Sequence record: MF158041
Source of the DNA: Shigella phage Sf15
DNA length: 64,000 nt
Reading direction: 5' to 3' (one strand)
The position numbers were made by a program, and so were the translations under genes. The notes under the pieces were generated by a model. It saw only the letters and a list, made by a program, of their open reading frames with translations. It ran no database searches and was not told where the DNA came from. This document shows positions 45,574 through 46,725 of this stretch, piece by piece (position 1 is the stretch's first letter; each line of letters starts with the position of its first letter).

Positions 45574-45656
45574 TGGCATGGGACGTAGGATTCGAACCCA
45601 TTTGAAACGGTTTTGGAGGCCGTCGCACATGCCTTAGTGTCTTAACATCGTCCCAT
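45574..45656 (-). tRNA. tRNA-like, probable Trp (CCA), atypical
   Basis: perfect acceptor ATGGGAC/GTCCCAT, loop codon TGG, but about 7 extra nt between D arm and acceptor. Confidence 0.4.
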
Positions 45657-45821
45657 ACTATATTTCGAAGCTTACCCTGTTATCTCAACACTGTCAAGCT
45701 TCTTCTCAGATTATTTACATGTTCTGGAAAACATGAGATACAGACCACCTCCTTATGAGATTGACTCTTTCAAGTCAATGCGGAGACCCATAAAGGTCGT
45801 CATAGTAATCTGCTAACTAAC

Positions 45822-45898
45822 TGGCACACCCTACAGGATTCGAACCTGTAACTGACGGTTTAGAAGACCGTTGCTCTATCCGTTTGAACTAAGGGTGC
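45822..45898 (-). tRNA. tRNA-Arg (UCU)
   Basis: anticodon stem ACGGT/ACCGT, loop codon AGA. Confidence 0.7.
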
Positions 45899-46146
45899 AT
45901 TATCTTTAAAGGCTCTCTTAGAAAACCCTTAAAGATGCCCACTTTATTAATCATACCGTGGGCTAGTACGCCAAATTCTTTAACAGGGAGTTGGAATACC
46001 CTGCTGGTGTTTAGCCTATTAAGCTACTGCCAGAAAAACATTATCGTTTGCATTTATTTTTAAGTTTTTAAAATAGACGCTACGCTAACGAAAACTAAGG
46101 TTATCTTAAAGTGGTCACATCTGAATGTCAACAACTTTATGAAATT

Positions 46147-46222
46147 TGGTACTGGTAGGTGGAATCGAACCACCGATATTCCCTTATCAGGGGAGTGTTA
46201 TAACCTTCTTAACTATACCAGC
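46147..46222 (-). tRNA. tRNA-Ile (GAU)
   Basis: T-arm GGTGG/CCACC, loop codon ATC. Confidence 0.7.
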
Positions 46223-46224
46223 AT

Positions 46225-46301
46225 TGGAGGTTCAGGTGGGAATCGAACCCACATTCATAGGGCTTATGAAACCCTTGCATTACCTTATCTGCGACTGAAC
46301 C
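46225..46301 (-). tRNA. tRNA-Met (CAU), elongator-type
   Basis: loop codon ATG, acceptor GGTTCAG/CTGAACC. Confidence 0.65.
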
Positions 46302-46382
46302 ATTATAAGTTGCCCCTTTGTAGAGAACTGATTGAGTGGGTGTTTCCAGCCGCGCATGTGTTCTTCAGTTAAGGGGCGAATT

Positions 46383-46458
46383 TGGTAGAAGTGGAGGGAT
46401 TCGAACCCGTCGCCTGTCAGATTAAAAGTCTGCCGCATCACCATTCTGCTACACTTCC
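46383..46458 (-). tRNA. tRNA-Lys (UUU)
   Basis: loop codon AAA; T-arm nearly identical to Lys(CUU) gene. Confidence 0.6.
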
Positions 46459-46652
46459 ATTAAATCATCTTTGCAGTAACCTACGCAAACCTTGCTAAAG
46501 GGTTTGTAGAGTCATCTCTTATAAGCTAATCTAGAATCATGCTCAAGAGACTCTTCGGCACTCATGGGACGACTGGTTAGCTCCATAAGTCACTGCAAAG
46601 AGGATTACCAGACCGTATTTATCTTAAGTGCTTCCATTACACCAACACGCCG

Positions 46653-46725
46653 TAACGTGTGAAGGAATCGAACCTTCGCCTTTTCTTTACCAGAGAAATA
46701 GATTGTTTATTGTTTGCTGTAAACG
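46653..46725 (-). tRNA. tRNA-like fragment (T-arm and anticodon arm, possible Thr GGU); likely degenerate
   Basis: T-arm GAAGG-AATCGAA-CCTTC and anticodon hairpin present but no matching 5' acceptor strand. Confidence 0.25.

What the first reader, a model, noticed from the sequence alone, without database searches (positions are those of the whole stretch)
45574..46725. Aberrant tRNA-like elements: insertion-bearing Trp-like gene and a 3'-half tRNA fragment
45574-45656 has a perfect acceptor stem and Trp-type anticodon loop but about 7 extra nucleotides between D arm and acceptor. 46653-46725 has a good T-arm and anticodon hairpin but no 5' acceptor partner. These could be pseudogenes, tRNA-derived regulatory RNAs or Y RNA-like tRNA mimics.
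Basis: seen in the sequence. Interest (0 to 1): 0.45.

Follow-up and report, generated by a model that had tools for sequence, protein, structure and literature searches.

The report
Odd Trp tRNA plus phage Y-RNA
Two "broken-looking" tRNA-like sequences in a Felix O1-type phage are both conserved, structured RNAs: one is probably the phage's missing tryptophan tRNA with an odd insertion, and the other is the tRNA-mimic core of a Y-RNA-like small RNA encoded next to a Ro60-like protein gene.

Summary
The window is a Mooglevirus (Ounavirinae), about 99.9% identical to Shigella phage Sf13. It carries 26 minus-strand tRNA genes and none for Trp.

**Element 1 (45574-45656, minus).** This is a covariation-supported cloverleaf. 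It has the anticodon loop CUCCAAA, G73 and an encoded CCA. An invariant 6-7 nt insertion, GAUGUUA, lies between the acceptor stem and the D stem. Deleting 4 or 6 nt in silico makes ARAGORN call tRNA-Trp. None of the roughly 60 listed records (235 match) annotates it. It is most likely a functional non-canonical tRNA-Trp.

**Element 2 (46653-46725).** This is not a tRNA fragment. It is the interior of a 128-nt module at 46606-46733. A covarying 7-bp terminal stem and a UUACAGCAA motif enclose V, T, "acceptor-like" and D hairpins in the permuted order typical of YrlA Y RNAs. Three shorter paralogous modules lie in the same array.

**The neighbouring gene.** The gene 1 kb upstream (DUF2828+DUF7788) models as a Ro60/TROVE+vWA fold.

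**Distribution.** The same stem-plus-ACAGCAA modules flank homologous genes in mycobacteriophage, Listeria-phage and uncultured phage loci.

**Verdict.** The "pseudogene" reading is rejected, and the "Y RNA-like tRNA mimic" reading is supported for element 2. Binding, processing and aminoacylation are all untested.

The parts
45574..45656 (-). Non-canonical tRNA-Trp(CCA)-like gene, 83 nt. Acceptor stem of 7-8 bp (AUGGGAC(G)/(C)GUCCCAU), invariant linker GAUGUUAAG, short D stem CAC/GUG around the loop UAAGGCAU, anticodon stem GACGG/CCGUU with loop C-CUCCAAA-A, 4-bp T stem with loop UUCGAAU, G73, encoded CCA.
   Evidence: Sequence. Covariation on 12 distinct variants: 99.6% of cells paired and 8 pairs with changes on both sides. 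CM R3 scores 108.8 bits here and finds homologs in L059, L061, L004, L062 and L060. ARAGORN calls tRNA-Trp after an in-silico 4- or 6-nt deletion.
45668..45696 (-). Promoter-like site TTGACA-N17-TAAGCT, 11 nt upstream of the 5' end of element 1.
   Evidence: Read directly from the sequence. Conserved as TTTACA-N17-TAAGCT in Felix O1-type phages. The scanner did not report it because the second hexamer matches only 3 of 6 positions. A similar TTGACA-N17-TAAGAT site at 46131-46103 was reported.
46606..46733 (-). Parts: 5' stem strand AGACCGU 46729-46723; motif UUACAGCAA 46722-46714; V hairpin 46698-46682; T arm 46677-46661; AS (acceptor-like) hairpin ACACG-UUACGG-CGUGU 46660-46645; linker UG; D arm GUGU-AAUGGAA-GCAC 46642-46628; 3' stem strand ACGGUCU 46616-46610, followed by GG.
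   Evidence: CM R2 scores 149.7 bits here and finds orthologs with different stems in L062, L060 and L052. 97.4% of cells are paired and 18 of 21 pairs change on both sides. 85% identical to Felix O1, against 60% for the adjoining spacer.
46746..46821 (-). Module C: short paralog with stem AGACCAA/UUGGUCU, motif AUACAGCAA and an A/U-rich loop.
   Evidence: R1 scores 70.1 bits.
47210..47277 (-). Module B: short paralog with stem AGGCCGU/ACGGUCU (one G.U pair) and motif UUACAGCAA, lying between tRNA-Met and tRNA-Asn.
   Evidence: R1 scores 67.9 bits. Rfam Dicty_Class_I_RNA scores 22.2 bits, E 0.054.
47370..47440 (-). Module A: short paralog with stem AGACCAA/UUGGUCU and motif UUACAGCAA, lying between tRNA-Glu and tRNA-Met.
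   Evidence: R1 scores 68.2 bits. Rfam Dicty_Class_I_RNA scores 21.3 bits.
47777..49192 (-). Gene for a 471-aa DUF2828+DUF7788 protein with a predicted Ro60-like fold (helical-repeat ring plus vWA domain). It is the presumed protein partner of modules A-D.
   Evidence: Pfam. PHROG 850 'RNA-binding protein'. AlphaFold2 model with pLDDT 89 and pTM 0.89. The top 12 Foldseek PDB hits are all Ro60/TROVE, E 1.7e-8 to 3e-6. Mycobacteriophage homologs are annotated 'Ro-like RNA binding protein'.
46823..46882 (-). Two conserved hairpins between tRNA-Asp and module C (GAGAGGGCU..AGCCCCUC and CCUUAAAGA..UCUUUAAAGG). Their role is unknown; they may belong to the same processed transcript.
   Evidence: Sequence. 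95% identical to Felix O1.

Best explanation
The finding covers two different functional RNAs in the phage's polycistronic tRNA array.

(1) 45574-45656 (minus) is most likely the phage's tRNA-Trp(CCA).
- It is transcribed from its own sigma-70-like promoter together with tRNA-Ser(UGA).
- RNase P would mature it.
- Host TrpRS would charge it; the anticodon CCA, G73, A1-U72 and an encoded CCA end are all kept.
- Its core is non-canonical: an invariant 6-7 nt insertion (GAUGUUA) between the acceptor stem and the D stem, an 8/4 arrangement of acceptor and T stems, and a mismatched 31-39 layer. These features hide it from tRNA finders.

(2) 46606-46733 (minus) is a Y-RNA-like ncRNA of the YrlA type.
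- A covarying 7-bp terminal stem and an adjacent single-stranded UUACAGCAA motif are the proposed binding site for the Ro60-like DUF2828 protein encoded 1 kb upstream.
- They enclose a circularly permuted tRNA mimic: a variable hairpin, a T arm, a closed acceptor-like hairpin, U8-like UG, and a D arm.
- Three shorter paralogs (A-C) share the stem and motif but carry other loops, as multiple Y RNAs of one Ro protein do.
- The modules sit between tRNAs, so tRNA-processing enzymes would release them.

Shown here: the sequences, covarying structures, synteny, protein fold, and recurrence in distant phages.
Inferred: transcription, processing, protein binding, aminoacylation, and any downstream role (RNA quality control or repair, or countering host tRNA-targeting defences).
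For: Element 1
- The array codes for 19 amino acids but not Trp.
- No canonical tRNA-Trp was found in the Ounavirinae-type loci L059-L062 (ARAGORN), nor in the annotated Felix O1 and Arno162 arrays.
- 235 phage records match, and none of the roughly 60 listed annotates it as a tRNA.
- Acceptor, anticodon and T stems covary: A-U to G-C, U-A to C-G, ACGG/CCGU to UAAG/CUUA to UAGG/CCUA.
- U33, CCA and A37 are invariant.
- After a 4- or 6-nt in-silico deletion, ARAGORN calls tRNA-Trp.
- It is retained in Arno162, which lacks the Ro-like gene at the syntenic site.

Element 2
- The motif AGAAGACCNNNTACAGCAA occurs 4 times in the window against 0.05 expected, all in the array.
- The terminal stem covaries among paralogs and across phages.
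- CM R1 finds only these 4 sites in 64 kb.
- T, AS and D stems differ in sequence but still pair in Felix O1, Michonne, L060, L062 and L052.
- The arm order V-T-AS-D matches the published YrlA description (PMC4201824).
- The protein's predicted fold matches Ro60.
- In mycobacteriophage Lolly9, three tandem modules follow the 'Ro-like' gene, and Rfam YrlA hits the middle one at 37.7 bits, E 8e-6.
- Listeria phage WIL-1 and the uncultured loci L054, L057 and L058 have tandem modules just upstream of the gene.
- In the related Listeria phage CKA15, very abundant unannotated transcripts map within about 2 kb upstream of the homologous gene, and the authors suggested they are Y RNAs (PMC12282133).
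Against: General
- There are no expression, binding or aminoacylation data for this phage.

Element 1
- The D region is ambiguous. The MFE stem AUGUU/GGCAU is also compatible with every sequence.
- L062 has a different, near-canonical D arm, and L060's acceptor stem is degenerate.
- A tRNA with 9 nt between the acceptor stem and the D stem has no precedent known to me, so it may not be accepted by EF-Tu or the ribosome.

Element 2
- Rfam YrlA gives no hit here even at E<=10.
- The published YrlA motif GNCGAAN0-1G is not conserved. GGCGAAG is present here but reads GGAGAGG in Felix O1.
- The protein matches no PDB chain by sequence and has no Pfam TROVE hit.
- The module instances in alignment A5 were picked by requiring a stem, and alignment A8 was fitted to the structure. 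Both inflate the pairing percentages.
Confidence: 0.65

Rival explanations
1. Element 1 is a tRNA-Trp-shaped decoy or regulator that is not used in translation. It might sequester TrpRS, a host anticodon nuclease or a tRNA-modifying enzyme, or be a substrate or partner of the Ro-like RNP.
For: The core is non-canonical: a 9-nt linker, a 4-bp T stem and a 9-nt or mismatched anticodon loop. The linker GAUGUUAAG is invariant while the stems vary, which suggests a sequence-specific ligand. It sits in an array that also encodes tRNA mimics.
Against: U33, CCA, A37, G73 and the encoded CCA end are all conserved, which is what decoding and charging require. Trp is the only amino acid the array lacks. 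The element is kept in Arno162, where the Ro-like gene and the modules are absent at the syntenic site.
Confidence: 0.2
2. Both elements are decaying tRNA pseudogenes or fragments left behind by array rearrangements.
For: tRNA finders fail on both. Element 2 scores just under the Rfam tRNA threshold with a poor acceptor stem. L060's copy of element 1 has a degenerate acceptor stem.
Against: Compensatory changes occur in every helix across divergent phages. Element 2's 'missing acceptor' is replaced by a covarying closed hairpin plus a D arm. The modules are 85-95% identical to Felix O1, against 60% for the neighbouring spacer.
Confidence: 0.04
3. The stem-plus-UACAGCAA modules are cis-acting processing or stability elements of the tRNA precursor (for example RNase E or RNase III sites, or spacers that protect against exonucleases). 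On this reading they are not trans-acting partners of the Ro-like protein.
For: All four lie in inter-tRNA spacers, a few nucleotides from tRNA ends. Their loops are A/U-rich and poorly conserved.
Against: In Lolly9, WIL-1 and L054/L057/L058 the modules form tandem arrays directly next to the DUF2828 gene rather than between tRNAs. The motif and the G at stem position 2 are conserved across phages whose proteins are only 30-34% identical. One paralog per phage carries a complete tRNA mimic. No module is detected in the 8-kb Arno162 locus, which lacks the gene.
Confidence: 0.1

Closest known systems
YrlA-type bacterial and phage Y RNAs with Ro60/Rsr (Chen et al. 2014, PMC4201824; Rfam RF02553)
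   Same: Encoded within about 1-2.6 kb of a Ro60-like gene, on the same strand. The 5' and 3' ends form a stem. The interior mimics a tRNA with the arm order V, T, closed acceptor-like stem, D. The T loop is UUCGAUU and the D loop carries GG. Several paralogous RNAs occur per locus (compare YrlA/YrlB and Yrl1/Yrl2 of phage phiLo, PMC12135203).
   Different: The protein is a DUF2828+DUF7788 family member with no sequence-level TROVE match. The conserved single-stranded motif is (U/A)UACAGCAA next to a 7-bp stem, not GNCGAAN0-1G. Rfam YrlA does not hit the window's module at E<=10. The genes are embedded in a 26-tRNA array.
Dictyostelium Class I RNAs (Rfam RF01414; Kjellin et al. 2021, PMC7919456)
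   Same: A short covarying stem joins the 5' and 3' ends. An invariant G lies near the 5' end of the stem. A single-stranded ..UUACAGCAA motif sits immediately 3' of the 5' stem strand. The rest of the RNA is variable and A/U-rich. The 5' end reads AAG and the 3' end reads CUG. Many paralogs exist. RF01414 is the recurrent weak Rfam hit on the modules: 14.7-22.2 bits, each aligned over the full model.
   Different: All scores are below the gathering score of 41.5. The phage modules have one nucleotide fewer between the stem and the motif. There is no DUSE promoter. They occur in phages, whereas Class I RNAs were reported as unique to Dictyostelia. No link between Class I RNAs and a DUF2828/Ro-like protein is known; the published interactors are Rnp1A/CIBP, GuaB, NdkC and the uncharacterised DDB_G0281243.
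Canonical bacterial tRNA-Trp(CCA) (Rfam RF00005)
   Same: A-U at 1-72, G73, anticodon loop CUCCAAA, T loop UUCGAAU, GG in the presumed D loop, a 5-nt variable region, and an encoded CCA end like the neighbouring phage tRNAs.
   Different: 9 nt instead of 2 between the acceptor stem and the D stem. A 3-bp D stem. A possible 8-bp acceptor stem plus 4-bp T stem. A C.A (or C.C) mismatch at 31-39. ARAGORN at default settings and Rfam tRNA at E<=1 do not detect it.
Phage T4 stable RNAs species 1 and 2 (rnaC, rnaD) in the T4 tRNA cluster (from my own knowledge, not checked here)
   Same: Small stable non-tRNA RNAs co-transcribed with phage tRNAs and released by tRNA-processing enzymes.
   Different: No sequence or structure comparison was made here. 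As far as I know, T4 has no Ro-like gene.

Membership tests
tRNA (Rfam RF00005), element 1 | Detected by standard tRNA models or finders | tested here: not met
   No ARAGORN call at default settings. No Rfam tRNA hit at E<=1. Relaxed ARAGORN gives only an implausible 4-base-anticodon fold.
tRNA (Rfam RF00005), element 1 | Cloverleaf with covarying acceptor, anticodon and T stems, and a 7-nt anticodon loop with U33 and purine 37 | tested here: met
   99.6% of cells paired and 8 pairs with changes on both sides. U33, CCA and A37 are invariant. The loop has 7 nt only if a C.A or C.C layer at 31-39 is accepted.
tRNA (Rfam RF00005), element 1 | Canonical 2-nt linker (positions 8-9) and a 3-4 bp D stem with a GG loop | tested here: not met
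   The linker has 9 nt (GAUGUUAAG). The D stem has 3 bp. An alternative pairing cannot be excluded.
tRNA (Rfam RF00005), element 1 | Aminoacylation and use on the ribosome | not testable with these tools
   Only the TrpRS identity elements were seen (CCA anticodon, G73, A1-U72). These were recalled from memory, not tested.
YrlA / Y RNA (Rfam RF02553), element 2 (module D) | Encoded near a Ro60 ortholog, on the same strand | tested here: met
   The gene at 47777-49192 (minus) lies 1.0 kb upstream. Its AlphaFold2 model matches Ro60/TROVE structures. The protein is Ro60-like by predicted fold, not by sequence.
YrlA / Y RNA (Rfam RF02553), element 2 (module D) | Terminal stem formed by the 5' and 3' ends | tested here: met
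   AGACCGU/ACGGUCU. The stem covaries among paralogs and phages.
YrlA / Y RNA (Rfam RF02553), element 2 (module D) | tRNA-like domain with T arm, closed acceptor-like stem-loop and D arm in that order, with an optional V stem-loop upstream | tested here: met
   The order matches the description in PMC4201824.
YrlA / Y RNA (Rfam RF02553), element 2 (module D) | GNCGAAN0-1G motif near the 5' end (proposed Rsr contact) | tested here: not met
   There is no conserved GNCGAA near the 5' end. GGCGAAG at the V/T junction is not conserved in Felix O1. UUACAGCAA is conserved instead.
YrlA / Y RNA (Rfam RF02553), element 2 (module D) | Reaches the Rfam gathering score | tested here: not met
   No YrlA hit at E<=10 on 46560-46890. 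The homologous Lolly9 module scores 37.7 bits against a gathering score of 69.
YrlA / Y RNA (Rfam RF02553), element 2 (module D) | Physical association with the Ro60 protein | not testable with these tools
   Needs immunoprecipitation or EMSA.
Dictyostelium Class I RNA (Rfam RF01414), modules A-D | Short terminal stem, adjacent conserved 11-nt motif, conserved AAG start and CUGU end | tested here: inconclusive
   The stem, UUACAGCAA, the AAG start and the CUG end are present. The spacing differs by 1 nt and the transcript ends are not mapped.
Dictyostelium Class I RNA (Rfam RF01414), modules A-D | Reaches the Rfam gathering score (41.5 bits) | tested here: not met
   14.7-22.2 bits.
Ro60 / TROVE protein family, gene 47777-49192 | Helical-repeat ring plus C-terminal vWA domain | tested here: met
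   The top 12 Foldseek PDB hits are all Ro60/TROVE, with TM-scores 0.43-0.65. The next hits are vWA domains only.
Ro60 / TROVE protein family, gene 47777-49192 | Pfam TROVE domain or sequence-level similarity to Ro60 | tested here: not met
   Pfam finds only DUF2828 and DUF7788. phmmer against PDB sequences finds no Ro60.

The most novel reading that the evidence does not exclude
The 'terminal stem + (U/A)UACAGCAA' RNAs may be the cognate RNA ligands of the whole DUF2828 branch of Ro60-like proteins, a family that Pfam-based annotations also report in eukaryotes. If so, the Dictyostelium Class I RNAs, which share this layout and are currently thought unique to dictyostelids and of unknown mechanism, would be the eukaryotic members of the same RNP class. 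In effect they would be Y RNAs of a DUF2828 protein; the uncharacterised pull-down protein DDB_G0281243 is one candidate.
Probability: 0.12. Interest if true: 0.85.

Novelty: new variant of a known kind. Interest (0 to 1): 0.66.

Why it matters
- Felix O1-type phages are classic typing and therapy phages, yet none of the roughly 60 listed public records (of 235-247 that match) annotates either RNA as an RNA gene.
- If element 1 is charged, the array covers all 20 amino acids. It would then be a natural example of a decoding tRNA that tolerates a 6-7 nt insertion in its core. That is useful for understanding tRNA architecture, and possibly how phages evade host tRNA-targeting defences.
- Element 2 and its paralogs define a recognisable RNA signature: a 7-bp stem with G at position 2, followed by NACAGCAA. 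This signature accompanies DUF2828-type Ro-like genes in Ounavirinae, Herelleviridae, mycobacteriophages and uncultured large phages.
- That signature gives a concrete candidate ligand for a protein family matched in 709 phage records.
- It also offers an explanation for the very abundant unannotated transcripts reported in Listeria phage CKA15.
- The resemblance to Dictyostelium Class I RNAs makes a long-standing question, what those RNAs bind and do, directly testable.

Tried and rejected
- **ARAGORN with relaxed thresholds or introns** gave implausible folds for element 1 (a 4-base 'anticodon') and nothing for element 2.
- **MFE folding** of both regions was no better than shuffled sequence (z = -0.12 and +0.50), so thermodynamics alone gives no support.
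- **The Rfam tRNA alignment of element 2** (V hairpin read as anticodon arm, ACCGUUU/ACACGUU as acceptor) was rejected. In Michonne and Felix O1 the 3' segment pairs with the following sequence, not with the 5' segment.
- **ARAGORN's D-stem register** (ACA/UGU) after in-silico deletion was rejected because it fails in Felix O1, whereas CAC/GUG becomes CUC/GAG there.
- **An H-type pseudoknot** combining both candidate D-region helices was considered and rejected on loop-length grounds: there are 0 nt to cross a 5-bp stem.
- **The GGCGAAG match to the YrlA motif** was rejected as a coincidence, since it is not conserved in Felix O1.
- **Weak Rfam hits** (Plastid-ycf2, tmRNA_permuted, AfaR, SNORA40, MIR156 and others) were treated as noise from tRNA-like or A/U-rich sequence.
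- **The Dictyostelium test** for a DUF2828 protein failed. The afdb50 library was unavailable, Avesson et al. 2011 is not held, and DDB_G0281243 appears in only one paper, without annotation.
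Full report
**Context**

ARAGORN finds 26 tRNA genes on the minus strand between 42945 and 47611. Together they cover 19 amino acids; Trp is missing. The region is 99.9% identical to Shigella phage Sf13 (Mooglevirus, Ounavirinae) and 80-90% identical to more than 200 Felix O1-like phages. In Sf13 and Sf17 only the same tRNAs are annotated, and nothing is annotated at either element.

**Element 1 (45574-45656, minus strand)**

*What the sequence shows.* The RNA reads AUGGGAC-GAUGUUAAG-ACAC-UAAGGCAU-GUGC-G-ACGGC-CUCCAAA-ACCGU-UUCAA-AUGGG-UUCGAAU-CCUAC-GUCCCAU-G-CCA.

*Why finders miss it.*
- ARAGORN at default settings and Rfam tRNA at E<=1 do not detect it.
- Deleting 4 or 6 nt within positions 9-18 in silico makes ARAGORN call tRNA-Trp(cca) at default settings.

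*Conservation.*
- BLAST finds it in 235 phage records at 80-100% identity. The roughly 60 listed records show either nothing annotated under the match or a 'hypothetical protein'.
- A covariance model built here finds homologs in more distant relatives: L059, Yersinia phage P778 (L061), Pectobacterium phage Arno162 (L004), L062 and L060.

*Covariation on 12 distinct variants.*
- 99.6% of cells form standard pairs, against 35-53% when the partners are slid by one to three columns.
- 8 of 20 pairs change on both sides. Examples are 1-72 A-U/G-C, 2-71 U-A/C-G, anticodon stem ACGG/CCGU against UAAG/CUUA against UAGG/CCUA, and T stem U-A/G-C.
- U33, CCA, A37, G73 and the encoded CCA end are invariant.

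*The D region is the uncertain part.*
- A 3-bp stem CAC/GUG around a GG-containing loop is supported by CUC/GAG in Felix O1-type phages and AGC/GCU in L060.
- The MFE alternative AUGUU/GGCAU is also compatible with every sequence, but only through wobble-preserving transitions.
- L062 has a near-canonical D arm (GCUA/UGGC), with the extra nucleotides on its 3' side.
- G8 can pair with C65 in all members, which gives an 8-bp acceptor stem and a 4-bp T stem.

*Other points.*
- A promoter-like TTGACA-N17-TAAGCT lies 11 nt upstream and is conserved.
- No canonical tRNA-Trp was found in the Ounavirinae-type loci scanned with ARAGORN (L059-L062). None is annotated in the Felix O1 or Arno162 arrays.

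*Conclusion.* This is a selected, probably decoding, non-canonical tRNA-Trp. A non-translating decoy cannot be excluded.

**Element 2 (46653-46725)**

*The larger unit.* Rfam tRNA scores 28.8 bits here (gathering score 29), but only by forcing a 5-of-7 acceptor stem. Reading outward shows a larger unit spanning 46733 to 46606:

CAGA-AGACCGU-UUACAGCAA-...-UUUCU[CUGGUAA]AGAAA-AGGC-GAAGG[UUCGAUU]CCUUC-ACACG[UUACGG]CGUGU-UG-GUGU[AAUGGAA]GCAC-...-ACGGUCU-GGUA.

The segment that a tRNA reading takes as the 3' acceptor strand is in fact a closed hairpin. It covaries:
- ACUCG/CGAGU in Felix O1;
- ACCCUUC/GAAGGGU in Michonne;
- CGUGG/CCACG in L062;
- CGCUCCC/GGGAGUG in L060.

This hairpin is followed by UG and a D arm. 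The order V, T, AS, D inside a terminal stem is the published architecture of YrlA Y RNAs (PMC4201824).

*Paralogs.* The 5' signature AGAAGACCNNNTACAGCAA occurs four times in the window against 0.05 expected. All four are in the array, and each is followed by a complementary NNGGUCUGG. This defines modules A (47370-47440), B (47210-47277), C (46746-46821) and D.
- The paralogs covary: AGACC-AA/UU-GGUCU against AGACC-GU/AC-GGUCU.
- Module B has a G.U pair. On the opposite strand this would be an A.C mismatch, which points to RNA from the minus strand.

*Covariance-model searches.*
- The model of the short modules finds only these four sites in the 64-kb window.
- The model of module D finds orthologs directly after tRNA-Asp in L062 (72.7 bits) and L060 (59.9 bits), and one in L052 (40.8 bits). 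Their stems differ in sequence, while all but the weakest candidates keep a T loop UUCGANU.
- On the model-fitted alignment, 97.4% of cells pair and 18 of 21 pairs change on both sides. That alignment leans towards the structure.

*Conservation against Felix O1.*

| Segment | Identity |
|---|---|
| Hairpins 46823-46882 | 95% |
| Module C | 90% |
| Module D | 85% |
| Adjoining spacer 46459-46604 | 60% |

**The neighbouring gene (47777-49192, minus strand)**

- It encodes a 471-aa DUF2828+DUF7788 protein. PHROGs and the Felix O1 RefSeq record name it 'RNA-binding protein'.
- It matches no PDB chain by sequence.
- An AlphaFold2 model (pLDDT 89, pTM 0.89) matches Ro60/TROVE structures exclusively in its top 12 Foldseek hits. 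These are Thermus phage phiLo Ro60, Xenopus Ro60 and Deinococcus Rsr, with E 1.7e-8 to 3e-6. After them come isolated vWA domains.
- tblastn finds homologs in 709 phage records, including mycobacteriophage genes annotated 'Ro-like RNA binding protein'.

**Recurrence of the modules next to this gene family**

- Uncultured loci L054, L057 and L058 (protein 31% identical): three tandem modules lie just upstream of the gene. Their stems are UGAGCAC/GUGCUCA, UGAACGC/GCGUUCA and UGGACAU/AUGUCCA.
- Listeria phage WIL-1: two modules lie just upstream of the gene.
- Related Listeria phage CKA15: three very highly transcribed unannotated regions were reported within about 2 kb upstream of the homologous gene, and the authors proposed they are Y RNAs (PMC12282133).
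- Mycobacteriophage Lolly9: three tandem modules follow the gene. The middle one has T, AS and canonical D arms and draws an Rfam YrlA hit of 37.7 bits, E 8e-6.
- Arno162: the gene is absent from the syntenic position and no module is detected in the 8-kb locus, yet the Trp-like element is retained. This suggests element 1 does not depend on the Ro-like gene or the modules.

**Comparison with known families**

*YrlA.* Module D works like a YrlA RNA but fails two membership criteria. It has no Rfam hit at E<=10, and it has no conserved GNCGAAN0-1G motif; UUACAGCAA is conserved instead. I therefore treat it as a variant class paired with the DUF2828 branch of Ro-like proteins.

*Dictyostelium Class I RNAs.* Unexpectedly, the only Rfam family that repeatedly aligns full-length to the short modules is Dicty_Class_I_RNA, at 14.7-22.2 bits against a gathering score of 41.5.
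- Those RNAs are defined by a short terminal stem, an adjacent 11-nt motif, an AAG start and a CUGU end. They are reported as unique to Dictyostelia (PMC7919456).
- The phage modules read (CAG)AAGACCGU-UUACAGCAA...ACGGUCUGG.
- Whether this resemblance is homology or convergence could not be tested here.

**Proposed mechanism (inferred)**

The array is transcribed from sigma-70-like promoters downstream of the Ro-like gene. RNase P and the 3' processing of flanking tRNAs would release the modules. The Ro-like ring would bind the terminal stem and the ACAGCAA motif. The variable loops, or the tRNA-like domain, would tether other factors, as Y RNAs do with PNPase. The result would be a change in RNA or tRNA quality control during infection. 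None of these steps has been observed in this phage.

Noticed in passing
window 47210-47277, 47370-47440, 46746-46821 (minus); L054:9676-9894: The short stem-plus-UUACAGCAA modules repeatedly draw full-length but sub-threshold hits to Rfam Dicty_Class_I_RNA (14.7-22.2 bits). They share its AAG start, the G in the stem, the motif and the CUG end. That family is reported as unique to dictyostelid amoebae.
   Followed up: partly
window 46823-46882 (minus): Two strong hairpins lie directly after tRNA-Asp (GAGAGGGCU..AGCCCCUC and CCUUAAAGA..UCUUUAAAGG). They are 95% identical to Felix O1, more conserved than the modules that follow. Neither is followed by a U-run, so they are not obvious terminators.
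   Followed up: no
window 47284-47360, 43955-44031, 46966-47053 (minus): Three ARAGORN tRNAs (Met-CAT, His, Tyr) were not reported by the Rfam tRNA model at E<=1. The Met-CAT gene draws only a weak tRNA-Sec-like hit (20.5 bits). By my reading it has a long D arm and an anticodon hairpin ACAUG-UCUCAUUAG-CAUGU with a 9-nt loop, or a 7-nt loop closed by U.G. It may be another atypical tRNA.
   Followed up: no
L004:2170-2270 (Arno162, between the DUF5681 gene and tRNA-Pro): At the place where other phages carry the Ro-like gene, Arno162 has only a 478-nt gap. That gap contains a T-arm-like AUGGG-UUCGAGA-CCCAU and a ...GCGUCUGGUAAU end resembling the 3' end of the modules. It could be a remnant or a divergent module that CM R1 misses.
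   Followed up: no
window 45899-46146 and 45221-45470 (minus): Two further spacers of about 250 nt in the array have no tRNA. The first has a promoter-like TTGACA-N17-TAAGAT (46131-46103) and weak tmRNA-type Rfam hits that overlap tRNA-Ile (29.9 and 20.3 bits). The second overlaps a 103-aa TTG-start ORF (45137-45448) with no Pfam match. In Felix O1 the corresponding spacers hold HNH endonuclease genes.
   Followed up: no
L063 (Listeria phage WIL-1) 5575-9455: Downstream of the Ro-like gene are genes annotated as an HD-domain protein, a tRNA splicing ligase (RtcB-like), a NADAR-domain protein and a tRNA amidotransferase. This resembles the bacterial rsr-yrlA-rtcBA RNA-repair operon context.
   Followed up: no
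L002 (Shigella phage Sf17) about 905-1155: Sf17 carries roughly 130 extra bp between the promoter region upstream of element 1 and tRNA-Arg(TCT), compared with the window. The content of the insertion was not examined.
   Followed up: no
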